From Longimicrobiales bacterium (lineage in GTDB: Bacteria > Gemmatimonadota > Gemmatimonadetes > Longimicrobiales > Gaopeijiaceae), in contig CBDANQ010000007.1 of NCBI GenBank assembly GCA_965197725.1, positions 1 through 44,916 on the forward strand: a stretch of DNA of 44,916 nucleotides, in the 5' to 3' direction. Position 1 is the stretch's first letter, and each line of letters opens with the position of its first letter. Below are positions 2,679 to 44,916 of this stretch, piece after piece. A model generated the notes under the pieces. The model did no database searches. It was not told the origin of the DNA and worked only from the letters and a program-made list of their open reading frames with translations. Position numbers and translations under genes: made by a program.

Positions 2679-4073
2679 ATGAAGCTTACGCCGAAAGACA
2701 CCGTCGGCCTGCTCCTCGTCGCCGGCACATTCGGCGCGCTGTACGTCCACATCGGTCTGGACGGTCACGCCTCCAAGCACCCGAGTTCGGCCGCCGACGG
2801 TGGAGGCTCCGTCACCACGGCGGTCGAGAGCAGCGCGGTGGCGTTCATGAACGTGAACGTCCTGCCGATGGATCGGGACCGGGTCCTCCGGAATCAGGTC
2901 GTGATCGTCGAGGGCGGCTTCGTTCAGAGTATCGGCCCAGCCGGGCAAATGAAGCCTCCGCCCGGCGCGCTCATCATCCCGGGCGACGGCAGCAGGTATC
3001 TGGTGCCCGGACTCACCGACGCGCACGTGCACTTGGAAGGGGACGCGGAGCAGTGGCTCAAGCTCTTCGTCGCGAACGGCGTCACGACGGTCTTCAATCT
3101 GGAGGGCGAGCGACGCCACCTCCAGCTCCGTGACCTGATCCGCTCCGAAGACGTGCTGGGCCCGACTCTGTACACGTCTGGTCCCTTCACCAACGAGCCG
3201 AGGGTAGAAACGCCGCAGCAGGCCGAAGATGAGGTACGGGAGCAGGCCCGGCTCGGGTACGACTTCGTGAAGATTCACGGCAACCTCTCCGCGGACGCGT
3301 ACCAGAAGCTCGTCGAGGTCGGCTCGGAGGAAGGGATCCCGATCGTCGGACACGCCCCGCGAAACCTGTCGCTGCGAGAGGTGCTCGAGAGCGGTCAAGC
3401 GTCCATTGTGCACGCCGAAGAGCTGATCTATGCGAGGTTCCCTACCCTCGATCCGTCGGACCTCGAGCGCGTTGCATCGGAGATCGCGGCAGCGCGCACG
3501 TGGGTAACGCCTACGGTTACGACCTTCGGCAACAACGAGACGCAGTGGGGCACACGCGCGGGGCTCCAGACGAGACTCGACTCCCGAGCCGTGGACTACG
3601 TCCCGCAATCCTTGAGGGACCGATGGGCGGGCCCGAACCCCTATACGGACAAGGATTCCTCAGAGCGCCCCCGGATCCGCGCGATGTTCGACTTCCACCA
3701 GCCGATGCTTCGCGCGCTCGGCCGCGCGGGCGTCCCGATGCTCGCGGGCACAGACGCTGGCACGCCGGTCATGGTTCCAGGTTTCTCTCTTCATGACGAG
3801 ATCGACGCGTTGGCCAGAGCCGGCTTGACGAGCTTCGACGCGCTCGAAGCCGCGACGAGCAACGCGGGCCGTTTCGTGCGTGAGTTCGTGGACGAGAATG
3901 CGAGCTTCGGCACCGTGACGCGCAACGCGAGAGCAGACTTGATTCTGCTCGACGGGAACCCCTTGCTGGATCTCTCGCGACTTCGGCGGCCCGTGGGCGT
4001 GATGCTTCGCGGCCAATGGTACGACCGCGATGCGCTGGACCGGATGCTGGGAGAGGCGACCGGCAACCGCTAG
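2679..4073 (+). CDS. Amidohydrolase family protein, membrane-anchored or exported
   Basis: PGLTDAHVH metal motif, K, GH, H and GTD motifs, ADLILLDGNP C-terminus, N-terminal hydrophobic helix. Confidence 0.9.
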   Translation: MKLTPKDTVGLLLVAGTFGALYVHIGLDGHASKHPSSAADGGGSVTTAVESSAVAFMNVNVLPMDRDRVLRNQVVIVEGGFVQSIGPAGQMKPPPGALIIPGDGSRYLVPGLTDAHVHLEGDAEQWLKLFVANGVTTVFNLEGERRHLQLRDLIRSEDVLGPTLYTSGPFTNEPRVETPQQAEDEVREQARLGYDFVKIHGNLSADAYQKLVEVGSEEGIPIVGHAPRNLSLREVLESGQASIVHAEELIYARFPTLDPSDLERVASEIAAARTWVTPTVTTFGNNETQWGTRAGLQTRLDSRAVDYVPQSLRDRWAGPNPYTDKDSSERPRIRAMFDFHQPMLRALGRAGVPMLAGTDAGTPVMVPGFSLHDEIDALARAGLTSFDALEAATSNAGRFVREFVDENASFGTVTRNARADLILLDGNPLLDLSRLRRPVGVMLRGQWYDRDALDRMLGEATGNR

Positions 4074-4128
4074 TTGCAACAACTTGATGCGTCGGATCCA
4101 CCTTCCTATCGCCATGGAAGACAGCTCG

Positions 4129-4629
4129 ATGAAGCTCTTGAGACCGGTCCTACTGACCTGCACGCTCATTGCCGCGGCGTGTGGCGGTACAGAAACCGCC
4201 GAGTCCGCGGAAGCGCTCCCGCTTCTCGCCGAAGCATCTTCGGACCTCCCCTCCGTGCTCGTCTACAAGACGCCGACGTGCGGATGCTGCAACGGGTGGA
4301 TCGAGCATCTGAGAGCGGCCGGCTTCACGGTCGATGCGCGCAATACGACCGACCTCATGACGATCAAGATCGACGCCGGGGTACCGACGGCGATGTCGTC
4401 CTGCCACACGGCACTCGCGGACGGGTATGTGGTCGAGGGGCACGTGCCGGCCGAGCAGCTGAAGCGACTGCTCAACGAGCGCCCGGATCTCGTCGGTGTC
4501 GCGGTCTCGGGCATGCCGGCCGGATCGCCCGGCATGGAGAGTCGCAACCCGCAGCCGTATCAGGTTCTCTCTTTCGACAGCCAAGGCAACGCCGCCGTCT
4601 TTGCGGAGATCGATCCTGGCAGCCCGTGA
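4129..4629 (+). CDS. DUF411 metal-binding lipoprotein
   Basis: YKTPTCGCC, SCHTA, YVVEGHVP and GMPAGSPGME motifs; AAAC lipobox. Confidence 0.85.
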   Translation: MKLLRPVLLTCTLIAAACGGTETAESAEALPLLAEASSDLPSVLVYKTPTCGCCNGWIEHLRAAGFTVDARNTTDLMTIKIDAGVPTAMSSCHTALADGYVVEGHVPAEQLKRLLNERPDLVGVAVSGMPAGSPGMESRNPQPYQVLSFDSQGNAAVFAEIDPGSP

Positions 4630-5714
4630 CTGAGGTTCCGCTGGCTGCCACTCGCAGCTTCGCTCCGCCGATTCTGGTCCTCGGCTGTGTGCTCGGCCTC
4701 TCGTCCCCGCAGCTCGACGCTCAAGAGCCGGTGGCGTGGGGGGACGAGTTGGTCTTCCACACCTTCTCGATCGTGGCGGTCGACCCGGCCACGGGCGAGT
4801 CCGGAGTGACGGTCACCACGCGGGTCCCTTGCGTGGGCAACGGCGTCCCGTGGGTACGAGCGGGTGTCGGGGCGGTCGCCACGCAGGCGTCCACCCGCAC
4901 GGCCTACGGCGACGAGCTCCTCGACATGCTCGAGCAGGGATTGAGCCCCCGGGAGGCGCTGGAGCGGGCGACGGCCGCAGACGAGCAAGCCGAGCGACGC
5001 CAGGTGGGGGTCATTGCCCTGAACGGTTCATCGGCACAACACACCGGTACGGGGCCTAGCTTCTGGGCAGGGCACCGGTCCGGCGTCAACTACGCGACAC
5101 AGGGTAACGTGCTCGCTGGACCGGATGTGCTGGCGGCGGTCGCCGCCACTTTCGAGGCGAGCGAAGGGTCGGGGCGCCACCTCGCCGACCGGCTCATCGA
5201 GGCGTTGGCGGCGGGCCAGGCTGTCGGGGGCGATCGCCGAGCGGGCCGCCTGCAGTCGGCCGCGGTTGTCGTCGCAGACCCAAGGGAGGGTCGCTCACGC
5301 CGGGCCGACGGGCTGACCGTGAACATCAACGTGTGCGAGAGCCCAACGCCGGTCGCCGAGCTGCGCCGGATCTACACGACCATCTCGGGTACGCTCGGAT
5401 TCCGCACGCTCGAGCAGCACTCGGGCAACGACGTTTGGCAGGTCAAGCTGATCATGAACGGGCTCGGCTTCTACCGGGGCGCGACGGAATCGCTCGAACA
5501 GACCGGCGGCTGGCGGTTCTACGATGACGAGATCGTTGCCGCTGTGGACGCTTTTCGGGCCGAACAGGGTCTGTCTACGTCGAACTCGGGTGGAAGCCCT
5601 CCCGGACTCGTCGACGCCCGAACGGTCGAGGCGATGTGGGCGGCACTCGAAGAGGCCGGGAAGGCTGTCGAGATCCGAGCAATCATTAGGGAGCTCACCG
5701 CGGTTCGTCGGTAG
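4626..5714 (+). CDS. DUF1028 (Ntn-hydrolase-like) protein with C-terminal peptidoglycan-binding-like domain
   Basis: HTFSIVAVDPATGESGV, GAVATQA, QGNVLAG and GGDRR motifs; GTGA overlap with the upstream stop; signal peptide. Confidence 0.85.
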   Translation: MTEVPLAATRSFAPPILVLGCVLGLSSPQLDAQEPVAWGDELVFHTFSIVAVDPATGESGVTVTTRVPCVGNGVPWVRAGVGAVATQASTRTAYGDELLDMLEQGLSPREALERATAADEQAERRQVGVIALNGSSAQHTGTGPSFWAGHRSGVNYATQGNVLAGPDVLAAVAATFEASEGSGRHLADRLIEALAAGQAVGGDRRAGRLQSAAVVVADPREGRSRRADGLTVNINVCESPTPVAELRRIYTTISGTLGFRTLEQHSGNDVWQVKLIMNGLGFYRGATESLEQTGGWRFYDDEIVAAVDAFRAEQGLSTSNSGGSPPGLVDARTVEAMWAALEEAGKAVEIRAIIRELTAVRR

Positions 5715-36102: not shown

Positions 36103-36417
36103 ATGCCAAGAACGAGACCGCCGTATTCGTTGGAGTTCCGCCAGCAGATGGTGGAGCTGGTCAAAGCAGGTCGCACGCCTGAGGAGCTGAGTCGGGAGTT
36201 TGAGCCCACAGCGCAGACGATCCACAATTGGGTGAAGCAGACGGACCTCGACACGGGAGTCAGAAGCGACGGCCTGACGTCGTCAGAGCGCGAGGAGCTC
36301 CGCGAGCTTCGGCGTGAGAACAAGCGGCTTCGTGTCGAGCGGGAGATCCTAAAAAAAGCCGCGGCCTGGTTCGCTCAGGAGTCCGACTCGGTGCCCCCGA
36401 AGCGTTCGAGTTCGTGA
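36103..36417 (+). CDS. IS3 transposase OrfA
   Basis: YSLEFRQQMVEL HTH and ELRRENKRLRVEREILKKAAAWF; A7G slippery site at 36351-36358 for a -1 frameshift. Confidence 0.92.
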   Translation: MPRTRPPYSLEFRQQMVELVKAGRTPEELSREFEPTAQTIHNWVKQTDLDTGVRSDGLTSSEREELRELRRENKRLRVEREILKKAAAWFAQESDSVPPKRSSS

Positions 36418-37030
36418 GGGCCAACCAGGCCGAGTTCAGCGTGCAGATGATGTGCGAAGTCCTGAGCGTCTCGCCCAGCGGGTACTACGCATGGAGAAAG
36501 CGTCCTCCATCGCATCGCGCGGTCGAGAACGAGCGACTGCTAGGTCGGATGCGTGAGATCCACACGTTCAGCCGTGAGACGTATGGCCAGCCACGGATGT
36601 ACGCCGAGCTCAGGGACGACGGCTGGCAGGTCAACCACAAGCGGGTGCGTCGTCTGATGAGGCTGGCAGGACTACAAGGCGCTACGCGGCGAAGGAAGTG
36701 GCGCACGACGAAGCGAAACAGAGATGCTCGACCTGCCCCCGATCTCGTCGCGCGCGACTTCAGTGTGCACGGCCCGGACCAGCTCTGGGTTGCCGACATC
36801 ACCTACGTGCCGACCTGGAGCGGCTTCTTGTACCTGTCAGTCGTCGTCGATGCGTGGAGCCGCCATGTGGTCGGATGGTCGATGAAGACGCATCTCAAGA
36901 CCGATCTCGTGCTCGACGCGCTGAACATGGCGCTGCAGCAACGACGACCGAACGGTGTCATCCATCATAGCGATCAGGGTACCCAGGGTGAATTCAAGCG
37001 GTCGTCGCAACACCTCGAGGAGGAGTTGCG

Positions 37031-38419
37031 ATGGAGGCAAGCAAGCGCCGACGAGCGGATCGAGCTCTACGTCCACAGATGCGTTCACCAGGCCGTCCGC
37101 CGGTGGGACGCCGCGAGCATCGGCAGAGGTTCTGGGAAGAGGTCGCTCGAGGTCTGTCGAGCGAGGAGGCCGCCGTGGCAGCGGGTGTGTCCCCCGCTGT
37201 CGGGGTGCGCTGGTTTCGCGAATGTGGTGGCATGGCACCCCTCAATCTTCGTCCCCAGTCACGGCGCTATCTTTCGTTCGTTGAGCGAGAAGAGATCGCC
37301 GTTCTTCGAGCCCGTGGTCGTGGCGTGCGCGAGATCGCCCGGCAGTTGGGCCGCTCACCCTCGACGATCTCGCGAGAACTGGGGCGAAACGCAGCTACAC
37401 GGGGAGGCAATCTCGAGTATCGGGCCACGACCGCTCAATGGCACGCCGATCGGCGAGCGAAACGTCCCAAGCTTGCGAAGCTCGCTACGAACGGTGAACT
37501 GAGGCAGTATGTACAGGATCGCCTCGGAGGCCTGATCGCGGCTTCAGATGGTACGGCCGTGGCGGGCCCCGATGTGCGCTGGATCGGACGGCGTCGCGGT
37601 CGCCGACAAGACCGGCGGTGGGCGGTCTCGTGGAGTCCCGAGCAGATCGCCAACAGGCTACGGGTCGACTTCCCCGACGATGAGTCCATGCGTATATCGC
37701 ACGAAGCCATCTACCAGGCGCTCTACGTTCAGGGCCGTGGTGCGCTGCGACGGGAGCTGACAGCGTGCCTTCGGACGGGACGCGCGCTACGGGTGCCTCG
37801 AGCTCGCACCCGCGGACGGGGCAAGACGTTCGTTCACCCCGAGATCATGCTCAGTGAGCGACCGGCCGAGGCAGACGACCGCGCCGTTCCCGGGCACTGG
37901 GAAGGCGACCTGATCCTGGGACTGGGCAGTTCGGCGATCGGAACGCTGGTCGAGCGGGCCTCCCGGTTTACGATGCTGCTCCACCTCCCCCGCCTTGACA
38001 AACACGGCGAGCCCAGGACCAAGAACGGTCCAGCGTTGGCTGGACACGGTGCCGAAGCCGTCCGGGACGCGATTGCTTCGTCGATCACGACCCTGCCCGA
38101 GCAACTCCGCCGGTCTCTGACATGGGACCAGGGAACAGAGATGGCTCAGCACGAACGGCTTCGCATCGATACTGGCCTGGCCGTCTACTTCTGCGACCCG
38201 CAGAGCCCGTGGCAGCGCGGCACGAACGAAAACACGAACGGCCTGTTGAGACAGTACTTCCCGAAGGGCACCGACCTCAGCAGACATACCGCTGACGATC
38301 TCGCCGCCGTCGCAGCCGCTCTCAACAGCCGCCCCCGCAAGACCCTCGGTTGGAGAACTCCGGCGGAAACCTTGGAAAATCTGTTGTCATCAAAGGACCA
38401 GACCTCAACCTTGCGTTGA
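37031..38419 (+). CDS. IS30 transposase (extreme C-terminus altered by a 181-bp insert)
   Basis: LGRSPSTISRE HTH, SHEAIYQALY, GHWEGDLI, TWDQGTEM and SPWQRGTNENTNGLLRQYFPKG. Confidence 0.93.
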   Translation: MEASKRRRADRALRPQMRSPGRPPVGRREHRQRFWEEVARGLSSEEAAVAAGVSPAVGVRWFRECGGMAPLNLRPQSRRYLSFVEREEIAVLRARGRGVREIARQLGRSPSTISRELGRNAATRGGNLEYRATTAQWHADRRAKRPKLAKLATNGELRQYVQDRLGGLIAASDGTAVAGPDVRWIGRRRGRRQDRRWAVSWSPEQIANRLRVDFPDDESMRISHEAIYQALYVQGRGALRRELTACLRTGRALRVPRARTRGRGKTFVHPEIMLSERPAEADDRAVPGHWEGDLILGLGSSAIGTLVERASRFTMLLHLPRLDKHGEPRTKNGPALAGHGAEAVRDAIASSITTLPEQLRRSLTWDQGTEMAQHERLRIDTGLAVYFCDPQSPWQRGTNENTNGLLRQYFPKGTDLSRHTADDLAAVAAALNSRPRKTLGWRTPAETLENLLSSKDQTSTLR

Positions 38420-39548: not shown

Positions 39549-40963
39549 TCGGTCCAGGTACGCTCGCCGGTGGGCTCGTGGGCCCGCTTCCTTGAGCGCG
39601 AGCTCTGTGAGCTCTCGCCTGAGCGCGGCGGAGGCCTTCCTCAGATCGGTGCTCAGGGATGCCTGGTCGGCCGGCCACGCGGCCGGTTTCGCGGCTTTCG
39701 TGCCTTCTCCCGGCCGGAGAGCCCGGTCGGCAACCCTCCAGAGCCCCCTCAGCGCGGATTTTCCGTCGCCGGCGACTCCGCTCGGACTGCCGCCAGCGTG
39801 GCCGCGATTGCAGCGATCCGGCGATCGCTAAGGTCAGAGAGGACGTTTCTTCAGGCGGCGCTCCCCGTGGGCCGTCTCCCCTCCTAGCGGATGTGCGGCG
39901 GGAGAGTGTTCCACGATGAAATCCACACCAATACGGGCGAGGCGTCGCTGAAAACCCATACTAGTAGGCCGCCATGATGAGTTGCATTCCCGCCCGCAGG
40001 CGTACGCGCCACTTCCTCTCAAGCTCGTCGCTCCAGTCCGGATCCAGCGCCTTCGCCACCTCGCAAATGCTGTCAAGCCACAGCTCGTAGAGTTTCGGGA
40101 GGACGCTACGTCCTTCACGGCTGTGCGACGTTCCGAGCCTGGTTAGCATGGATCGAAACTCCGGATCCGCCACGTCCCTACTCACCATCATGTGGACCGA
40201 ATCTCTGAGCACGCGATGTTGTCGCGCGAAGTCGGTTTGCCCGAAGTAGGGCGCGATCTCCGGAGATGAGTTCATGAAGGCCGCGTAGAAGGTCTCGGCG
40301 AAATCCCCGTGAGCCTCGCAGCGCTCGAAACTGAGACGTACTTCCTCATCGGCGAACCACCCAGGCGGCCGCGTTTCGGAGTCGGCATCAAGATCCCGAA
40401 AGAAATCGATTCTGCAGCGCAACGGGCCATCGACGGCCACCCTGTGCGGTGCCTGAGGGTGGATCGTAATGAGACCTGGCGCCGAGATCACATGCTCCTC
40501 GCCGGTTTCAAGGTTCAGAAACCGCAGTCTTCCCTCGAACACATGGAGCACTCCCCATCGTCCGGGAGCCAAGGCGTGTTCCGACTGAAGCGCATCCGGA
40601 ATCGTGTCTTGCGTGAAGATGGGGGAAGCGCCGCCTGGAACGAGCCCCTCAGGCAAACAATCGGTCATGGTGGTCTGGTCGGTGTGGGTTCGCTGTGCCA
40701 TGTGCCGGGCAGGGTGGACAGAGCCCCGTGCTCCAGCGACAGCTCGCATGCACCAGAGAGAACGTTCTTAGCACGCGGTCCGGGGACCAGGAGATCCACA
40801 TCATCCTGGTAAATTATCATAACCAATCGAGGACCGGCAACCGCTTGCTGTGGGTCATGGACATCGAGCCGCGATCGGCGCGTCGCCCGCGACATCGTGG
40901 AGCGGATCTCGGTCCAGGTCCGCTCGCCGGTGGGCTCGTGGGCCGCTTCCTACGAGCGCGAGC
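39549..40963 (+). repeat. Imperfect ~55-bp direct repeats (39549-39603 and 40909-40963) flanking the DUF1971-globin gene
   Basis: TCGGTCCAGGT(A/C)CGCTCGCCGGTGGGCTCGTGGGCC...GAGCGCGAGC present in both copies. Confidence 0.75.
39961..40668 (-). CDS. DUF1971 (YeaR/TehB-N cupin-like) - globin fusion protein
   Basis: N-half: SPIFTQDTIPDALQSEH...WGVLHVFEGRLRF...PQAPHRV. C-half: SFERC...FAETFY...F..TDFARQ...LGTSHSR...YELWLDS. Alternative start at 40701. Confidence 0.75.
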   Translation of the reverse strand: MTDCLPEGLVPGGASPIFTQDTIPDALQSEHALAPGRWGVLHVFEGRLRFLNLETGEEHVISAPGLITIHPQAPHRVAVDGPLRCRIDFFRDLDADSETRPPGWFADEEVRLSFERCEAHGDFAETFYAAFMNSSPEIAPYFGQTDFARQHRVLRDSVHMMVSRDVADPEFRSMLTRLGTSHSREGRSVLPKLYELWLDSICEVAKALDPDWSDELERKWRVRLRAGMQLIMAAY

Positions 40964-41315: not shown

Positions 41316-41832
41316 TGAAGAGCTCGAGAAGGAGACCCAACTCTTGAAGCGAGCGGTGGCCGATTTAACCCTGGACAATCTGATCCTGAAGGAGGCGTCC
41401 AAGGGAAACTTTTGAACCCCGAGCGGCGGAGGCGGTGCGTGGCAGAAGTTCGTCAGCGGTTCGGGGTGAGCGAGAGGAGAGCGTGCAGGGTCTTGGGCCA
41501 GGCCCGCACGACGCAGCGCCGCAGGAGCAACAGAAGTGCGGACGAAGAGGCGCTGAGGGAGGACGTGGTGAAAGTAGCCCGCAGGTTTGGACGCTACGGG
41601 TACCGGATGGTGACGGGGATGCTGAGGACGAAGGGTTGGGTGGTGAACCACAAGCGGGTGGAGCGGATCTGGAGGCAGGAGGGGCTGAAGGTGCCGAAGA
41701 AGCAGCCCAGGCGGGGGCGTTTGTGGTTGACGGACGGCTCCTGCATCCGGCTCCGGCCCTTGTACCGGCACCACGTCTGGGCCTATGACTTCGTGGCGGA
41801 TCGGACCCACGACGGTCGGCGGCTGAAGATGC
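41316..41832 (+). pseudogene. Truncated IS3-family (IS407-group) transposase remnant
   Basis: OrfA tail KELEKETQLLKRAVADLTLDNLILKEASKGNF* with GGGAAAC; OrfB start VSERRACRVLGQ...YGYR...VNHKRVERIWRQEGL...WAYDFV; the rest of the DDE domain is absent. Confidence 0.85.
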
Positions 41833-41964
41833 GCCCTCCGACGATGGGAAGACCAGACCGCCGCCGCGCGGCTACCCCCCGCCGCCGCTTCTTTCCGTGC
41901 TACACGCCGGGCGCCGGTGGGATTCCAGCCTTTTGGGTCGTGGTTGGAGGGACCGGATGTTTCC

Positions 41965-42900
41965 TCACACCAGGCGTAGCAGCGAGAGCGTCTTGAGAGC
42001 CTCGTTGATCTTCACGACCGTAAAGTTTTCCCTGCGGAGCTTGGCGCGCCATGCGTCGTCGGTCTTGATCAGATCCATCACCGTGTCGGGCGTGATTTCT
42101 CGGTCGTCAACCTGGCTGCACACCGAGTGGACGGTCGTTAACGTCTCTAGCTCGCATTCGTCGAATCTGCGGAGTTTGTCGATCAGTGCCCGTGCAACCA
42201 CTTCCTGACGGACGTACCGAGCCGCATAGCTTGCTGCCTGGGAATGTTTCGGCCCTGGCCGAAGGAGTTGGTCGGCCCCCCTGACGAGGTAGCCCTTTTT
42301 CAGGCATCCGGGCTCAGCGTCGCGGTAGGTCAACGAGGGGTCGTATGGCCCAAACCGATATTTGGTGTGCTTCCGGAAGACACCAAGTTGGAGGCCATTC
42401 TCCAGAAGGTAGGCTACCTTTTGGGCACGCATTCTGGAAACACCCTGACCGCCGTCGCCCGACAGAATGCCAGTGATCCAGCCATACACTGCGATCCGGC
42501 GAAACGTGACCGGAGCCTTCCCCCGAAACGAGTACGAACTACTGCGTAACCGCTCCATCTCGGCACCGATTGAAGCCAGTTGCCTCTCAGTTTCGCTATC
42601 CGGTCGTTTCAGCCATTCCGGGCCCAGCGAGGCAGCTAGACAGAGGTCACGCACAGCCTCCTGTTCAATGGCGTCAAGTCGTGGTTCCCCTCGGTCTTCG
42701 CCGAGGCCCAACTCGGCAAGCGGCGTGGAACTGACCAGGATGACCCAGTAGTCCAGAAGGGTCTCGCGCGCTTCGGGGGCCTCGCGCACATAGGCTGCAA
42801 TGTCTGGCTTGATGCCTGCCTCGAACTCGGCCAGCATCCGGGCTTTGAGGGCGTCGACGGTTGTCATCGGTAGTGTCCCGAAGATGTTGCGCCCATTCAC
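41965..42900 (-). CDS. Hypothetical two-domain protein: putative anti-sigma-like N-terminus plus DarG-C/SocA-like C-terminus
   Basis: GTGA coupling to the sigma gene; N-terminal DIAAYVREAPEARETLLDYW helix; C-terminal RAQKVAYLLE...YRFGPYD...LETLTTVH pattern. Confidence 0.55.
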   Translation of the reverse strand: MNGRNIFGTLPMTTVDALKARMLAEFEAGIKPDIAAYVREAPEARETLLDYWVILVSSTPLAELGLGEDRGEPRLDAIEQEAVRDLCLAASLGPEWLKRPDSETERQLASIGAEMERLRSSSYSFRGKAPVTFRRIAVYGWITGILSGDGGQGVSRMRAQKVAYLLENGLQLGVFRKHTKYRFGPYDPSLTYRDAEPGCLKKGYLVRGADQLLRPGPKHSQAASYAARYVRQEVVARALIDKLRRFDECELETLTTVHSVCSQVDDREITPDTVMDLIKTDDAWRAKLRRENFTVVKINEALKTLSLLRLV

Positions 42901-43589
42901 AGGTCTAGGAGGGCGCGAAACCGTGGAATCTTCTTCAGCCGCTCTCGTGCGTTCCGAAGATGTCTGTGAACCATAGCGGGGCTGATTCCCATGACTTCTG
43001 AGACCGATTCGGGCCCAGAGATCTGTCTACGCTCGATCCACCTGAGGGTGGCCGCCGCCGCTTGGCGGGGCGGCAATTCAGAGATGATCTGTTGAAGTGT
43101 CTCACGGTCAATGCGATCCGCTATCTCCACCGACAGGTCGCCTCGATCAAGTCGGCTGGTTTTCTCCGATACATCGTGGACGGAAACGGTCGCCTCCGGA
43201 AGCTTCGCCCGGCGCCTGCGGATCGCATCGAGACAGCGCTGCTTGTACGCGCGTCCGAAGCGTTCTTCCCAGAAGGTGGGTTTCTCGCTGGTAGCGGCTT
43301 GGAGGGCCACGAACATGTCGCGGATCCCCTCGGAGTGGACATCCTTACGGTCTTCCAGACGTAATGCCCATGAGACCGACTCCGCGATGGGGCGGGAGCG
43401 CTCCAAGAGGTGTGCGGCTGCGGTCTCAGTTAGTTCTGGGTGACGGTCGCCAAGGGCCTTCCGGACTAGGAATGCCAGCGTCTCCAGCGTCAGGTGACGA
43501 CCCTCCCTGCGGACCGCAATCATGCGATCCGTTGGATTGAGTGTGCAGAGCCGCTCGATCTCCGCCTTGGACTTCGCTGGGCGTGCCAG
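42897..43589 (-). CDS. Divergent sigma-70/ECF-like RNA polymerase sigma factor (start uncertain)
   Basis: Region-2-like YKQRCLDAIRR and region-4 LPPRQAAAATLRW...SVSEVMGISPAMVHRHLRNARERLK. The ORF is open to 43772, but that overlaps the Ubl gene; a CTG after GAGG at 43589 is a tentative start. Confidence 0.7.
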   Translation of the reverse strand: MARPAKSKAEIERLCTLNPTDRMIAVRREGRHLTLETLAFLVRKALGDRHPELTETAAAHLLERSRPIAESVSWALRLEDRKDVHSEGIRDMFVALQAATSEKPTFWEERFGRAYKQRCLDAIRRRRAKLPEATVSVHDVSEKTSRLDRGDLSVEIADRIDRETLQQIISELPPRQAAAATLRWIERRQISGPESVSEVMGISPAMVHRHLRNARERLKKIPRFRALLDL

Positions 43590-43740
43590 TGGTCTTCCTC
43601 GGTGTGTTGGGCCGCTACCCAGATAACCGGAGCGAGCCCTCGGAACTGTAAACCCTGAAAGTCCGAGTTCACACTTCTCCGTCCGGAATCCGATTACACC
43701 AATAGCGACGCCGAAACCCCTGGTACATAGGAGAGACGCC

Positions 43741-43983
43741 ATGACGACGACCATGACCCAGAAGACGATCACGATTTACATTGATCAACAGAAGTTCGAA
43801 CTCGAAGCGGGCAAGTACGCCGCCACCCAGCTCCTTGAGCTTGCGGGCGAGGACCCGTCTCAGACGATTCTGGTGCTGAGAACTGGCGACGATCTCGAGC
43901 AGCTGAAGAAGGATTCCTACTTCGAGCCAAAGCCCGATGCCCGCTTCGTCGTGTTTCACTGCGACCCGACTCCCGTCTCGTGA
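43741..43983 (+). CDS. Ubiquitin-like (multi-ubiquitin-domain family) small protein
   Basis: AGGAG RBS; 80 aa beta-grasp pattern ITIYID..F....YAATQLLELAG......LV......QL......F; coupled to E2 and JAB-E1 genes. Confidence 0.75.
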   Translation: MTTTMTQKTITIYIDQQKFELEAGKYAATQLLELAGEDPSQTILVLRTGDDLEQLKKDSYFEPKPDARFVVFHCDPTPVS

Positions 43984-44357
43984 TCTTTGGCCCGGATCGT
44001 CTTCAGGCGGACCTCGCTACGATCGGCTTCCATGCACAGCGTGTCTCTGCGCACGACGGGACCACTTTCGTGGTGATCCCGAACTTCGAGGTGCCGTGCG
44101 GACGCTTCGTAGGACGCGTTATCGACCTGGGACTGCAGGCGACCCCCGACTTTCCGCTCACTATCGCCTCCGCAATCCATGTGCGGTCTGACCCACACCT
44201 GCTGGACATCGCGGACACCGTCCCGGGAAGACGTAACATCATCGAAAGTGCCTTGGGGCCAGACTGGCGCTACTGGAGTCACAACCTTGGCTGGTCGGAC
44301 CCAAGGACCGCACGGCGGCTCATTTCCAAAGTGAACAAGGTGTTCGAGGGTGCTTGA
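43980..44357 (+). CDS. Prokaryotic E2-like (family E) conjugating protein
   Basis: FVVIPNFEVPCG, PDFP and WRYWSH motifs; GTGA overlap with the Ubl stop. Confidence 0.72.
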   Translation: MIFGPDRLQADLATIGFHAQRVSAHDGTTFVVIPNFEVPCGRFVGRVIDLGLQATPDFPLTIASAIHVRSDPHLLDIADTVPGRRNIIESALGPDWRYWSHNLGWSDPRTARRLISKVNKVFEGA

Positions 44358-44916
44358 AGTCAACTCGGCTGCGATGTCGACATCCCTCGCTGGGGCATTG
44401 CATGGCCCCCTCGTCCGAGATGACGGGCAGGAGGATCTGACATTCGCGTTGTGGTACCCCTCGGAGGGAATGAACCGGAAGACCGCCCTTCTCTTCCGCT
44501 CCATCCGGCCGGGACCAGGCGACCGCGAGATTCACGGCAACGTCAGTTTCAACCCGGGCTACCTGCAGCGCGCCTTGGAGGAGGCGCTCCGGCACCGGGC
44601 TGGGCTAGCATTCCTCCATAGTCATCCGTTTCCGGGGTGGCAGCACATGAGCGAGGACGATGTCGCGGCCGAGCGCCGAATCGCCCGTGCGGGGTGTGCT
44701 CTGACCGGACTGCCCCTGATCGGGATGACGACCGGAAACGATGGTACGTGGAGTGCGAGGACCTGGGTTGCGGAGACGGACAAACCGGAGCCGCGCATGT
44801 CATGGCTTCCGGAAGTCCGGGTCGTTGGAGAGGCTCTCCGCGTGTCACGCGTGCCCCGTTCTCCACGTCCCGAGCGGAAGGCCGAAACGCTGATTCGAAC
44901 TGTGGCCGCTTGGGGT
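44350..44916 (+). CDS. JAB/JAMM peptidase fused to ThiF/E1 (partial, runs off window end)
   Basis: Missing from the ORF track. Manual translation gives 189 open codons with GQED (Glu28) and LAFLHSHPFPGWQHMSEDD (HxH..S..D), ending in RTVAAWG, which resembles the start of a ThiF/E1 domain. Confidence 0.8.
   Translation, partial: MLEVNSAAMSTSLAGALHGPLVRDDGQEDLTFALWYPSEGMNRKTALLFRSIRPGPGDREIHGNVSFNPGYLQRALEEALRHRAGLAFLHSHPFPGWQHMSEDDVAAERRIARAGCALTGLPLIGMTTGNDGTWSARTWVAETDKPEPRMSWLPEVRVVGEALRVSRVPRSPRPERKAETLIRTVAAWG

What the first reader, a model, noticed from the sequence alone, without database searches (positions are those of the whole stretch)
43741..44916. Bacterial ubiquitination-like operon (Ubl - E2 - JAB/E1), candidate defence or protein-conjugation system
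Seen: three translationally coupled genes, namely an 80-aa beta-grasp-like protein, a 125-aa E2-like protein, and an ORF missed by the track that has an intact JAMM motif (E28, H90-S-H92, SEDD) and runs into an E1-like start at the window edge. Known: Ubl/E2/JAB/E1 sets make up the bacterial Bil and Bub ubiquitination-like pathways, which are linked to antiphage immunity. Inference: this is a compact variant with a single-domain Ubl and a JAB-E1 fusion, next to IS debris as defence islands often are.
Basis: partly seen in the sequence, partly recalled or inferred. Interest (0 to 1): 0.85.

Follow-up and report, generated by a model that had tools for sequence, protein, structure and literature searches.

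The report
Bub-like ubiquitin-type operon, serine-ended
Three overlapping genes encode a small ubiquitin-like protein, an E2-like enzyme and a peptidase fused to an E1-like activating enzyme, a relative of the bacterial Bub protein-tagging systems that lacks their extra protease and whose tag ends in serine rather than the usual glycine.

Summary
Three overlapping + strand ORFs sit at 43741-43983, 43980-44357 and 44350-44916; the last is cut by the contig end.

- **80-aa protein:** models as a beta-grasp, closest to solved bacterial multi-ubiquitin/BubA structures.
- **Third ORF:** identical over its 189 residues to a 460-aa database protein with an intact JAMM motif plus a ThiF domain. Its best solved relative is the BubCD peptidase-E1 fusion.

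It belongs to a discrete, uncatalogued subfamily:

- No DUF6527/BubE in any locus examined.
- The Ubl ends in Val-Ser, not Gly.
- The E2 active-site motif differs from BubB.

The E1 crossover-loop Tyr and the E2 Ser of the Bub oxyester mechanism are conserved. An antiphage role is unproven, for Bub as well. The E1 part lies outside the window.

Verdict: new variant of a known kind.

The parts
43741..43983 (+). Ubl gene (80 aa): a single beta-grasp domain with a C-terminal tail ending Pro-Val-Ser-stop
   Evidence: ORF. The AF2 model has bb-a-bb-b topology and pLDDT 73. Foldseek top hits are bacterial multi-ubiquitin structures 9d5b/8u38 (E 5e-4, TM 0.71) and BubA 9ea8_B (TM 0.69/0.73). Pfam Multi_ubiq scores only 15.3 bits, below the 24.5 cut-off. 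S80 is invariant in 63 of 63 aligned homologues.
43980..44357 (+). E2-like gene (125 aa): BubB-like UBC fold with no conserved Cys; invariant Ser100 in a W-R-Y-W-S motif
44350..44916 (+). 5' part (189 of about 460 codons) of the JAB/JAMM peptidase-E1 fusion gene (BubCD-like). It holds the whole JAB domain, the linker and the first residues of the ThiF domain, and is cut by the contig end.
   Evidence: P0001 is 100% identical over the 189 residues and has ThiF at 185-411. The JAMM residues are invariant. The profile matches Citrobacter BubCD 9ea4 at E 8.6e-36.
43667..43671 (+). GTTCA motif 74 nt upstream of the Ubl start; candidate -35-like element of a promoter served by the neighbouring sigma-like protein (inferred)
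   Evidence: GTTCA lies at -69 to -85 in 11 of 14 loci that carry the sigma-like/DarG-C-like pair. At that position it occurs in 0 of 22 M78-peptidase loci and 0 of 29 other loci. No sigma-70-type promoter is found in 43400-43800.
42897..43772 (-). Divergently transcribed ECF-sigma-like protein. This is the longest ORF (291 aa); the real start is probably internal, giving about 208 aa as in the orthologue of L004.
   Evidence: TIGR02937 sigma70-ECF at E 5.5e-11 (42.4 bits, cut-off 42.9); Sigma70_r4_2 at E 9e-6. Conserved upstream and divergent in 11 loci including the window.
41965..42900 (-). 311-aa protein of unknown function whose C-terminal half resembles the C-terminal domain of DarG. It overlaps the end of the sigma-like gene by 4 nt, the position where an anti-sigma or partner gene would sit (inferred).
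   Evidence: PADLOC DarG at E 9e-8 (residues 129-306 on profile 159-326 of 329); NCBIfam DarG at E 1.5e-4, far below the cut-off; no macro domain; no Pfam hit. Conserved in 14 loci including the window. The Atlas returned only its own unnamed cluster.
41412..41996 (+). Truncated IS3-type transposase remnant (context only)
   Evidence: HTH_21 at E 1e-13 with no rve domain.

Best explanation
This is a three-gene ubiquitin-like protein-conjugation operon of the 6E/Bub lineage, with Type I layout: BubA-like Ubl, BubB-like E2 and BubCD-like JAB-E1. It belongs to a discrete subfamily that has no BubE (DUF6527) protease.

Proposed mechanism:

1. The E1 domain binds the beta-grasp Ubl and adenylates its C-terminal carboxylate, which here belongs to Ser80 (tail Pro-Val-Ser).
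2. The invariant crossover-loop Tyr373 takes the Ubl as an oxyester.
3. The Ubl passes to the invariant Ser100 of the E2 as a second oxyester.
4. The Ubl is then transferred to a target amine.

The JAMM domain cleaves directly after Val-Ser where the Ubl is made with a short tail or fused to the E2. With no BubE present, it probably also removes the Ubl from targets.

In this window expression is probably governed by the divergently transcribed ECF-sigma-like protein and its partner. In many relatives a CapH/CapP-like HTH + M78 peptidase pair sits there instead, which points to a stress- or phage-induced accessory system.

Shown here: gene order, folds, family relationships and conservation of catalytic residues. 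Inferred: every chemical step, the target, the role of the JAB domain, the regulation and any defence role.
For: **Anatomy.** Overlapping ORFs.

**E1.**
- A 460-aa protein identical over the window's 189 residues has ThiF at 185-411.
- Its best solved match is Citrobacter BubCD: single sequence E 7.7e-18; family profile E 8.6e-36 spanning JAB and E1, positions 8-407.
- Invariant in 45 of 45 homologues: E28, H90, H92, S101, D104 (JAMM); G202/G205/G207; R240; Y373.
- Y373 falls in the same MAFFT column as the 'G-Y' Tyr of all 10 comparator JAB-E1 proteins from the same phylum, 7 of them next to DUF6527.
- In Citrobacter BubCD the crossover-loop Tyr370 is the catalytic residue (paper sections read).
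- The only conserved Cys in or near the loop is a C-x-x-C pair (C348, C351). With C437/C441 it looks like the structural zinc site of MoeB/ThiF-type enzymes; that comparison is recalled, not tested.

**E2.** UBC fold nearest to BubB. No conserved Cys. Invariant S100 aligns with the catalytic-Ser position of BubB-type E2s.

**Ubl.** Beta-grasp nearest to multi-ubiquitin/BubA.

**C-terminus.**
- All 67 locus-derived Ubls carry (V/A)-S at the end of the last domain. 54 stop right after it, 7 have tails of 1-8 residues, and 6 are fused to the E2 directly after it.
- S80 is invariant in 63 of 63.
- In 120 database homologues found with the Ubl profile, 72 end in V-S and 48 carry variable tails of 1-8 residues after it. 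This is the pattern of Ubl precursors.

**Family discreteness.** E1-HMM scores are 577-785 bits for 94 loci and 122-166 bits for 10 other JAB-E1 loci, with nothing in between.

**Accessory character.**
- Matches at E<=1e-30 in 30 of 401 genomes of the phylum, 0 of 2 in the same genus, 11 of 70 in the same family-level group (the tally includes the unpublished genome G059).
- M78 peptidase + HTH neighbours in 22 loci.
- Relatives at 37-42% identity on actinobacterial plasmids beside ImmA/IrrE peptidase genes.
- A DNA methylase lies downstream in the orthologous locus L004.
Against: - No experiment exists on this subfamily.
- Bub itself has not been shown to protect against phage.
- The E1 domain is not in the window or in the assembly. 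Whether this particular copy is intact cannot be told, and a contig break inside a gene next to IS remnants could reflect an insertion.
- The window's Ubl and E2 score below the Pfam cut-offs. PADLOC and NCBIfam give nothing for them, and no sequence-level PDB match was found even with profiles.
- The Ubl model is only moderately confident (pLDDT 73).
- The E2 lacks the Asp + Ser-x-His arrangement of Type I BubB. Here His follows Ser directly and is not invariant, and the Asp column holds Ser/Ala. Catalysis is therefore not assured.
- A non-Gly C-terminus has no precedent among beta-grasp Ubls that I know of (recalled).
- Four phylum loci have V-S followed by Q-L-D-G-stop, which could mean a Gly terminus there. 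One locus and the plasmid relatives end in P-V-A.
- Two of the loci with upstream DNA (L079, L081) gave no E2 or Ubl hit.
- Binding could not be tested, because the complex predictor was unavailable.
Confidence: 0.8

Rival explanations
1. It is an ordinary Type I Bub operon whose bubE (DUF6527) gene simply lies beyond the contig end. The Ser terminus is irrelevant because the Ubl is processed elsewhere.
For: The window ends inside the third gene, so nothing downstream can be seen. The assembly is 88.9% complete. In canonical Bub loci of the same phylum DUF6527 sits directly after the JAB-E1 gene.
Against: - No DUF6527 in the own assembly.
- None in the two complete Longimicrobiales chromosomes that hold the 86%- and 84%-identical orthologous operons.
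- None among 6046 ORFs of 82 family loci plus the window, searched with a DUF6527 HMM built from 20 sequences of the same phylum (best E 0.0036).
- None within 1.5 kb in 12 further genome loci.
- In the phylum scan DUF6527 co-locates only with the weak (122-166 bit) JAB-E1 matches and never with the strong ones.
- No Gly is conserved in the Ubl tail.
Confidence: 0.03
2. It is not a protein-conjugation system. The E1-like domain adenylates the Ser-terminated beta-grasp protein for another chemistry, such as sulfur-carrier-type or MccB-type C-terminal modification. The Cys-less E2-like protein would then be a catalytically inert adaptor, as Iyer et al. 2006 first proposed for 6E E2-like domains.
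For: The terminus is not Gly. The E2 lacks Cys and lacks the Type I BubB Asp/Ser-x-His set. Iyer et al. called these E2-like domains inactive (passages read). MoeB, ThiF and MccB are among the E1 domain's solved relatives.
Against: - Ye et al. showed that Cys-less Bub E1 and E2 conjugate through Tyr and Ser oxyesters. Both positions are invariant here.
- The closest solved structures of all three proteins are the Bub conjugation proteins.
- No rhodanese or cofactor-biosynthesis genes are conserved nearby; the only conserved neighbours are regulators.
- The patchy, plasmid-borne distribution fits an accessory system.
- Variable tails and fusions after V-S imply JAB maturation, as for Ubl precursors.
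Confidence: 0.1
3. The copy in this genome is a dead remnant: a mobile accessory operon disrupted within the JAB-E1 gene, for example by an IS at the contig break, in a region already littered with IS fragments.
For: The contig ends inside the gene and the remaining 271 codons are nowhere in the assembly. A truncated transposase lies at 41412-41996 and two transposase ORFs at 36414-38419. A second E1/JAB locus in the same genome (contig C44) is interrupted by a Mutator-family transposase.
Against: All three reading frames are open with intact start contexts and all catalytic residues up to the last base. A full-length 460-aa protein identical over the shared 189 residues exists in the database. 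Incomplete assembly alone explains the break.
Confidence: 0.2

Closest known systems
Type I Bub (6E.1) operons: BubA/BubB or BubAB, BubCD, BubE (Ye, Gong, Chambers, Corbett, bioRxiv 10.1101/2024.11.21.623953; Citrobacter structures 9ea4, 9ea8, 9eae)
   Same: - Same gene order: Ubl, E2, JAB-E1.
- JAB-E1 fusion of the same length (460 vs 458 aa) with JAMM residues at almost the same numbers (E28, H90/H92, D104 vs E28, H91/H93, D104).
- Crossover-loop Tyr with no catalytic Cys.
- Cys-less UBC-fold E2 with an invariant Ser in a W-x-x-W-S motif.
- Multi-ubiquitin-type beta-grasp Ubl in one or two copies, sometimes fused to the E2.
- CapH/CapP-like neighbours in many family members.

   Different: - No DUF6527/BubE anywhere in the family, whereas 'all Bub operons possess bubE' and the published catalogue was seeded on DUF6527 (43, 47, 70, 91).
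- The Ubl ends in Val-Ser (Ala in a few) instead of Gly.
- The E2 has Ser-His-Asn instead of Ser-x-His, has no Asp at the D299 column, and has its own invariant His67.
- The E1 keeps a C-x-x-C pair in the loop, which Citrobacter BubCD lacks at the aligned position.
- The window's regulators are a sigma-like/DarG-C-like pair, not CapH/CapP, CapW or CapK/CapS.
- The E1-HMM score gap (577-785 vs 122-166 bits) marks a separate clade.
Type II Bub (6E.2): BubA, BubBD (E2-E1 fusion), BubE
   Same: Oxyester-type Cys-less E1 and E2 and a multi-ubiquitin-type Ubl.
   Different: There the E2 is fused to the E1, a JAB domain is usually absent and BubE is present. Here the JAB domain is fused to the E1, the E2 is free and BubE is absent.
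Bil (BilABCD) antiphage ubiquitination-like systems
   Same: The same four activities: Ubl, E2, JAB and E1. No E3.
   Different: Bil has a stand-alone JAB, an E1 with tandem inactive/active adenylation domains plus a Cys domain, and thioester chemistry. Here there is a single adenylation domain fused to JAB. PADLOC BilD matches only the Rossmann part weakly (E 1e-6), and neither the E1 loop nor the E2 has a conserved catalytic Cys.
Iyer, Burroughs & Aravind 2006, Table 1 row 6e (polyUbl, inactive E2-like, JAB-E1, metal-binding protein Y)
   Same: The same domain set. The paper notes that the Ubl may be solo or fused to the E2-like domain (passages read).
   Different: Row 6e includes the metal-binding protein Y, whose signature is a Cys/His zinc motif. 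I take Y to be the later DUF6527/BubE; that identification is my own inference. It is absent here.

Membership tests
Type I Bub (6E.1) | [quoted passage not shown] | tested here: met
   AF2 model with beta-grasp topology. Foldseek top hits are bacterial multi-ubiquitin and BubA structures. 49 single and 18 double forms in 67 loci.
Type I Bub (6E.1) | JAB/JAMM peptidase fused N-terminally to a single E1 adenylation domain (BubCD) | tested here: met
   P0001 is identical over the window's 189 aa and has ThiF at 185-411. The profile matches BubCD 9ea4 at E 8.6e-36 across both domains. The JAMM residues are invariant.
Type I Bub (6E.1) | E1 crossover loop with an invariant Tyr and no catalytic Cys | tested here: met
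   Y373 is invariant in 45 of 45. It aligns with the G-Y Tyr of 10 of 10 comparators. The only conserved Cys there is a C-x-x-C pair, which I read as a zinc site (inference).
Type I Bub (6E.1) | Cys-less UBC-fold E2 with an invariant catalytic Ser | tested here: met
Type I Bub (6E.1) | E2 Ser accompanied by an invariant His two residues on and an invariant Asp (D299/S333/H335) | tested here: not met
   Here the motif is S100-H101-N102, with H101 replaced by R, K, F or N in some members. The Asp column holds Ser/Ala. H67 is invariant instead.
Type I Bub (6E.1) | Conserved Gly as the mature C-terminus of the Ubl | tested here: not met
   The terminus is V-S in 67 of 67 loci. S80 is invariant in 63 of 63. 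72 of 120 database homologues end in V-S and 48 have variable tails after it. Canonical Bub Ubls of the same phylum end in Gly plus 1-3 residues.
Type I Bub (6E.1) | DUF6527/BubE serine protease in the operon ('all Bub operons possess bubE') | tested here: not met
   Searches found none. A positive control worked: the same HMM and Pfam model find DUF6527 next to the canonical JAB-E1 genes in 7 of 10 comparator loci. For the window itself the downstream DNA is missing.
Bil (BilABCD) | Separate JAB; E1 with inactive + active adenylation domains and a catalytic-Cys domain; Cys E2 | tested here: not met
   The E1 is a JAB-fused single adenylation domain of 460 aa. BilD matches weakly and only in part. 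No conserved Cys in the E2.
Type II CBASS Cap2/Cap3 | E2-E1 fusion acting on a CD-NTase, with a separate JAB (Cap3) | tested here: not met
   PADLOC Cap2 'E1-E2' models match only the ThiF core, residues about 190-365. The E2 is a separate gene, and no CD-NTase is among the conserved neighbours.
Pfam PF14462 Prok-E2_E | Score at or above the gathering cut-off (25 bits) | tested here: inconclusive
   The window protein scores 18.9 bits at E 0.0014. Many homologues at 50-79% identity carry PF14462 in the precomputed column.
Pfam PF14452 Multi_ubiq | Score at or above the gathering cut-off (24.5 bits) | tested here: inconclusive
   The window protein scores 15.3 bits at E 0.024. At fold level the best matches are solved multi-ubiquitin proteins.
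ThiS/MoaD-ThiF/MoeB sulfur-carrier pairs | Gly-Gly terminus, no E2 or JAB, cofactor-biosynthesis neighbours | tested here: not met
   V-S terminus. E2 and JAB are present. The conserved neighbours are regulators only. A separate MoeB-like gene sits on contig C52.

The most novel reading that the evidence does not exclude
A large, uncatalogued sister family of Bub in which the ubiquitin-like modifier is activated and conjugated through a C-terminal serine (Pro-Val-Ser-COOH; Ala in a side branch) rather than glycine. The relay would run Tyr to Ser as oxyesters, with no BubE. The E1-fused JAMM peptidase would act as both maturase (cutting after Val-Ser) and deconjugase. In the Gemmatimonadota branch a dedicated ECF-sigma-like/partner module, with its own GTTCA promoter element, replaces CapH/CapP as the switch. 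If true, the near-universal Gly requirement at Ubl C-termini is not a chemical necessity of E1-type activation.
Probability: 0.5. Interest if true: 0.78.

Novelty: new variant of a known kind. Interest (0 to 1): 0.62.

Why it matters
Bub systems are the only known ubiquitin-type cascades that run on oxyesters, and their biological role is still open.

The published catalogue (544 operons) was seeded on DUF6527, so it cannot contain BubE-less relatives. This window belongs to such a group. It is spread over several phyla and plasmids, and PADLOC does not detect it.

Its invariant non-Gly Ubl terminus gives a direct test of how E1 enzymes and JAMM peptidases read the Ubl tail. Its lack of BubE asks which activity reverses conjugation. 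If the family turns out to be antiviral or stress-responsive, defence-finding tools would need new models.

Tried and rejected
- **PADLOC and NCBIfam on the three window proteins:** no hits.
- **PADLOC on full-length homologues:** only the ThiF core matches Cap2 'E1-E2' and BilD models. Not taken as membership.
- **Sequence and profile searches of the PDB for the E2 and Ubl:** nothing significant; best E 0.12 and 0.2, with multi-ubiquitin entries only at E about 0.45.
- **Foldseek alone for the E2:** weak (E 0.012). The VIA second look resolved it.
- **Complex prediction (E1 + Ubl):** answered that it is not available. No binding test was made.
- **IMG/VR scan with the E1 alignment:** 14 pattern matches, none a relative.
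- **The search of earlier findings:** nothing on record.
- **Protein Atlas for the DarG-C-like neighbour:** only its own unnamed cluster.
- **The genome search with 50 locus handles:** reached only 2 genomes; the 48 metagenome records are not held. I therefore built a DUF6527 HMM locally.
- **Position of Y373:** the HMMER profile alignment placed Y373 opposite a different Tyr of Citrobacter BubCD (SEQRES 364) than the catalytic one (SEQRES 372 = Y370). I prefer the MAFFT alignment with 10 phylum comparators, but the loop alignment to Citrobacter itself remains uncertain.
- **E2 HMM against canonical Bub E2s:** no hit at E<=0.01. Homology shows only in the direct alignment and the fold.
- **Literature search with a 'buba' word-start term:** useless, returning buffalo papers. 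It was repeated as whole words.
- **CapK/CapS as regulators here:** rejected. They are STAS/GHKL proteins, whereas the window has a sigma-like protein.
- **A full phylogeny:** not run. The bit-score gap was used instead.
Full report
**1. What is in the sequence**

The window is the whole of contig C7 of a 3.0-Mb, 61-contig assembly that is 88.9% complete. At its 3' end lie three + strand ORFs:

| ORF | Coordinates | Length | Start | Overlap |
|---|---|---|---|---|
| 1 | 43741-43983 | 80 aa | ATG, GGAGAG 8 nt upstream | |
| 2 | 43980-44357 | 125 aa | GTG | GTGA start/stop overlap with ORF1 |
| 3 | 44350-44916 | 189 aa | GTG | 8 nt with ORF2; open at the contig end |

**2. The third gene is a JAB-E1 fusion**

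- A search for longer homologues returned 538 protein clusters at E<=0.001 among 3648 candidates. The 120 listed are 357-518 aa long and all carry ThiF PF00899.
- The best, P0001 (460 aa), is identical to the window's 189 residues and has ThiF at 185-411 (E 1.6e-36).
- In an alignment of 45 full-length homologues these residues are invariant: the JAMM residues E28, H90, S91, H92, S101, D104; the nucleotide-loop glycines G202, G205, G207; and R240, D299, C348, C351, Y373 and C441.
- The best solved relative is Citrobacter BubCD. The single sequence gives E 7.7e-18. The family profile gives E 8.6e-36 over profile positions 8-407 and chain 10-401, covering both domains.
- The rest of the gene is not in this assembly. 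Only residues 1-189 match on C7; the only other hit is an unrelated MoeB-like gene on C52.

**3. The 125-aa protein is a BubB-like E2**

- Pfam gives only a sub-threshold Prok-E2_E hit (18.9 bits against a cut-off of 25). However, 122 of 137 candidate homologues are significant, and many carry PF14462.
- The AF2 model from 48 sequences is confident (pLDDT 91.7).
- Foldseek ranks Citrobacter BubB (9eae_C) first (E 0.012, TM 0.65), followed by eukaryotic E2s and Cap2.
- There is no conserved Cys. Invariant residues are F43, R46, L50, H67, N86, S90, G93 and W96-R-Y-W-S100.
- Aligned with the E2s of five DUF6527-linked operons from the same phylum, W-R-Y-W-S-H-N falls on their W-Q-R-W-S-R-H. S100 therefore occupies the position of the catalytic Ser described for BubB (S333; sections read).
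- The accompanying residues differ. His follows Ser directly and is not invariant. The Asp column holds Ser/Ala. H67 is a family-specific invariant.

**4. The 80-aa protein is a beta-grasp Ubl**

- Pfam Multi_ubiq scores below threshold (15.3 bits).
- The AF2 model from 63 sequences has moderate confidence (pLDDT 73) and bb-a-bb-b topology.
- Its best Foldseek hits are solved bacterial multi-ubiquitin proteins (9d5b and 8u38 at E 5e-4 to 7e-4, TM 0.71-0.72; 9cd2; 9d5a) and BubA 155-229 (9ea8_B, TM 0.69/0.73). Ubiquitin variants and ThiS follow.

**5. Related loci**

I collected three sets of loci:

- Two Longimicrobiales (Gemmatimonadota) MAG chromosomes with orthologues at 86% and 84% identity.
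- 80 metagenome loci.
- 12 loci from a scan of 401 genomes of the window's phylum.

In the first 82 loci plus the window, the E2 gene lies directly upstream of the JAB-E1 gene in 73. Of the other 10, eight have under 100 nt of upstream DNA, and two (L079, L081) have upstream DNA but gave no hit. A Ubl was found in all 67 loci where DNA upstream of the E2 is available. It is a separate gene in 61 and fused to the E2 in 6. It has one beta-grasp domain in 49 and two in 18.

**6. How the family differs from Bub as described**

Ye et al. (outline, sections 5, 7, 8, 9, 12 and passages read) define two types. Type I Bub is BubA/B (often fused), BubCD and BubE (DUF6527). Type II is BubA, BubBD and BubE. 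They state that all Bub operons possess bubE and that BubA ends in a conserved Gly exposed by the JAB domain. Their Table S1 (first part read) says the catalogue consists of DUF6527-containing operons, and it lists Type I operons with separate Ubl and E2. Separation is therefore not new.

*(a) No DUF6527.*
- None in the own assembly.
- None in the two complete chromosomes with the orthologous operon.
- None among 6046 ORFs of the 82 loci plus the window, using an HMM built from 20 DUF6527 proteins of the same phylum (best E 0.0036).
- None within 1.5 kb in the 12 phylum loci.
- The control worked. In the phylum, DUF6527 was found in 23 of 401 genomes. It lies directly beside JAB-E1 genes that match my family profile only weakly.
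- The E1-HMM scores are bimodal: 577-785 bits in 94 loci and 122-166 bits in 10.
- The tallies include one unpublished genome, G059. It is one of the eight genomes with such a co-located pair. No sequence from it was fetched, and no other claim rests on it.

*(b) A Ser terminus.*
- All 67 locus Ubls carry (V/A)-S at the end of the last domain. 54 stop immediately after it. 7 have tails of 1-8 residues. The 6 fusions join the E2 0-4 residues after it.
- S80 is invariant in 63 of 63 and V79 is nearly so.
- In the 12 phylum loci, 7 end in V-S, 4 have V-S followed by Q-L-D-G, and 1 ends in P-V-A.
- In 120 database homologues retrieved with the Ubl profile, 72 end in V-S and 48 have variable tails of 1-8 residues after it. 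The next residue is E, R, L, G, S, D, H and others.
- Invariant residues followed by variable extensions or a fused partner are the signature of Ubl precursors trimmed by a peptidase.
- By contrast, the Ubls of canonical Bub loci in the same phylum end in Gly plus 1-3 residues.
- More distant relatives on actinobacterial plasmids (37-42% identical E1) have the same three genes beside an ImmA/IrrE peptidase gene. The one I translated ends in P-V-A.

*(c) The E2 motif* differs as described in section 3.

*(d) The E1 crossover loop.* It retains a C-x-x-C pair (invariant C348, C351) that Citrobacter BubCD lacks at the aligned position. The canonical phylum comparators also have it.

**7. Conserved catalytic logic**

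Y373 is invariant. In a MAFFT alignment it shares a column with the G-Y Tyr of all 10 comparator JAB-E1 proteins. In Citrobacter BubCD the invariant loop Tyr370 is required for conjugation.

The HMMER alignment to the Citrobacter chain put Y373 opposite another Tyr eight residues earlier (SEQRES numbering is paper numbering +2). Equivalence to Y370 is therefore likely but not proven.

Taken with S100 of the E2, the family has the residues for the Tyr to Ser oxyester relay. That it uses them is inference.

**8. Neighbours and regulation**

Clustering of flanking ORFs found conserved neighbours only upstream and divergently oriented, and none downstream.

- In 22 loci the neighbour is a Peptidase_M78 (IrrE-like) protein, accompanied by HTH_3 proteins in the representative loci scanned. 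This matches the CapH/CapP pair reported next to 31% of Bub operons.
- The window's branch instead has an ECF-sigma-like protein (11 loci) and a 311-aa protein whose C-terminal half resembles the DarG C-terminal domain (14 loci).
- In 11 of those 14 loci a GTTCA motif lies 69-85 nt before the Ubl start (window 43667-43671). Six also have an inverted copy further upstream.
- The motif is not at that position in any of 51 other loci.
- No sigma-70-type promoter is present.
- I read this as a candidate dedicated promoter. This is inference.

**9. Distribution and context**

- The family profile matches at E<=1e-30 in 30 of 401 genomes of the phylum. About 22 places are strong matches.
- It is found in 0 of 2 genomes of the same genus and 11 of 70 of the same family-level group. 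Some genomes have two copies.
- It is not found on IMG/VR viral contigs.
- In the window it lies beside IS remnants. In L004 a 1058-aa DNA methylase follows it.
- All this fits a mobile accessory element. It does not show defence. The Bub authors report no phage protection so far.

**10. Literature**

A whole-word search for 'DUF6527', 'BubCD' and 'bacterial ubiquitination-like' found 9 papers, of which 6 were listed. An earlier term search is, and a search on multi-ubiquitin/JAB/E2-like terms.

In those I read (two Corbett-lab preprints, the CapK/CapS paper, passages of Iyer et al. 2006) there is no BubE-less, Ser-terminated variant. In the Ye et al. text, 'C-terminal serine' occurs 0 times.

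Parts 2-7 of Table S1, the PDF supplement and the 2026 journal version of Ye et al. were not seen. They could bear on this claim.

**11. Verdict**

The operon is best filed as a new variant within the 6E/Bub kind, not as a member of Type I Bub as defined. Three defining features (BubE, the Gly terminus, the Asp/Ser-x-His E2 set) were tested and not met.

The particular copy is incomplete in the data, and its function is untested.

Noticed in passing
Own genome, contig C44 (locus L133:569-6226, minus strand): A second ubiquitin-type locus in the same genome. One 1140-aa ORF combines ThiF (residues 331-439), Prok-JAB (600-688) and a patatin-like phospholipase (759-1004). A 161-aa Prok-E2_A protein lies upstream. 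A Mutator-family transposase ORF (3661-4950) sits between them and overlaps the 5' end of the long ORF. The E1-JAB-patatin fusion looks like a CBASS/6A-type enzyme joined to an effector, possibly disrupted by the IS.
   Followed up: partly
window 41965-43772 (minus strand) and 43667-43671: An ECF-sigma-like gene is followed, with a 4-nt overlap, by a 311-aa gene with a DarG-C-terminal-like half and no macro domain. The pair is conserved divergently upstream of the Ubl operon in 11-14 loci and comes with a position-fixed GTTCA motif. It appears to take the place that CapH/CapP-like genes occupy in other family members.
   Followed up: partly
L128 (G079:C2), L129 (G250:C7), L130 (G153:C17): Further JAB-E1 fusions (511-597 aa) in the same phylum have no DUF6527 in the 9-10 kb fetched. 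In L128 and L130 the upstream Ubl ends in Gly plus 2-3 residues, and the E2-like ORF has a K-(F/L)-S-W motif instead of W-x-x-W-S. At least one more uncatalogued BubE-less 6E-like type therefore seems to exist.
   Followed up: partly
L131 (Rhodococcus plasmid NZ_CP108044.1) and L132 (Mycobacteroides abscessus plasmid NC_021278.1): Actinobacterial plasmids carry the same three-gene set, annotated as two hypothetical proteins plus 'ThiF family adenylyltransferase', beside an ImmA/IrrE metallopeptidase and near relaxase genes. The Rhodococcus Ubl has two beta-grasp-like repeats and ends in Pro-Val-Ala. Its E2-like protein has W-R-R-H-S in place of W-R-Y-W-S.
   Followed up: partly
L095, L096, L097, L099 (genomes G276, G243, G194, G255): A sub-branch of the family has about 205-aa Ubl ORFs in which Val-Ser is followed by Gln-Leu-Asp-Gly-stop, and an E2 motif of W-Q-Y-W-S-R-P. 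This may be a precursor tail or a Gly-ended form intermediate between the two types.
   Followed up: no
window 36414-38419 and 41412-41996: Two overlapping transposase ORFs (HTH_21+rve, IS3-like; HTH_38+rve, IS30-like) and a truncated IS3-type HTH_21 remnant lie just upstream of the regulator pair. GC falls from about 0.63-0.65 to 0.598 in 42001-44000.
   Followed up: partly
L004:7774-10950: In the orthologous Longimicrobiales locus a 1058-aa protein with an N6_N4 DNA methylase domain follows the operon after a 380-nt gap, hinting at a restriction-modification or related defence neighbour.
   Followed up: no
window 39961-40749 (minus strand): A 262-aa ORF combines DUF1971 with a weak globin match. 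It is unrelated to the finding.
   Followed up: no
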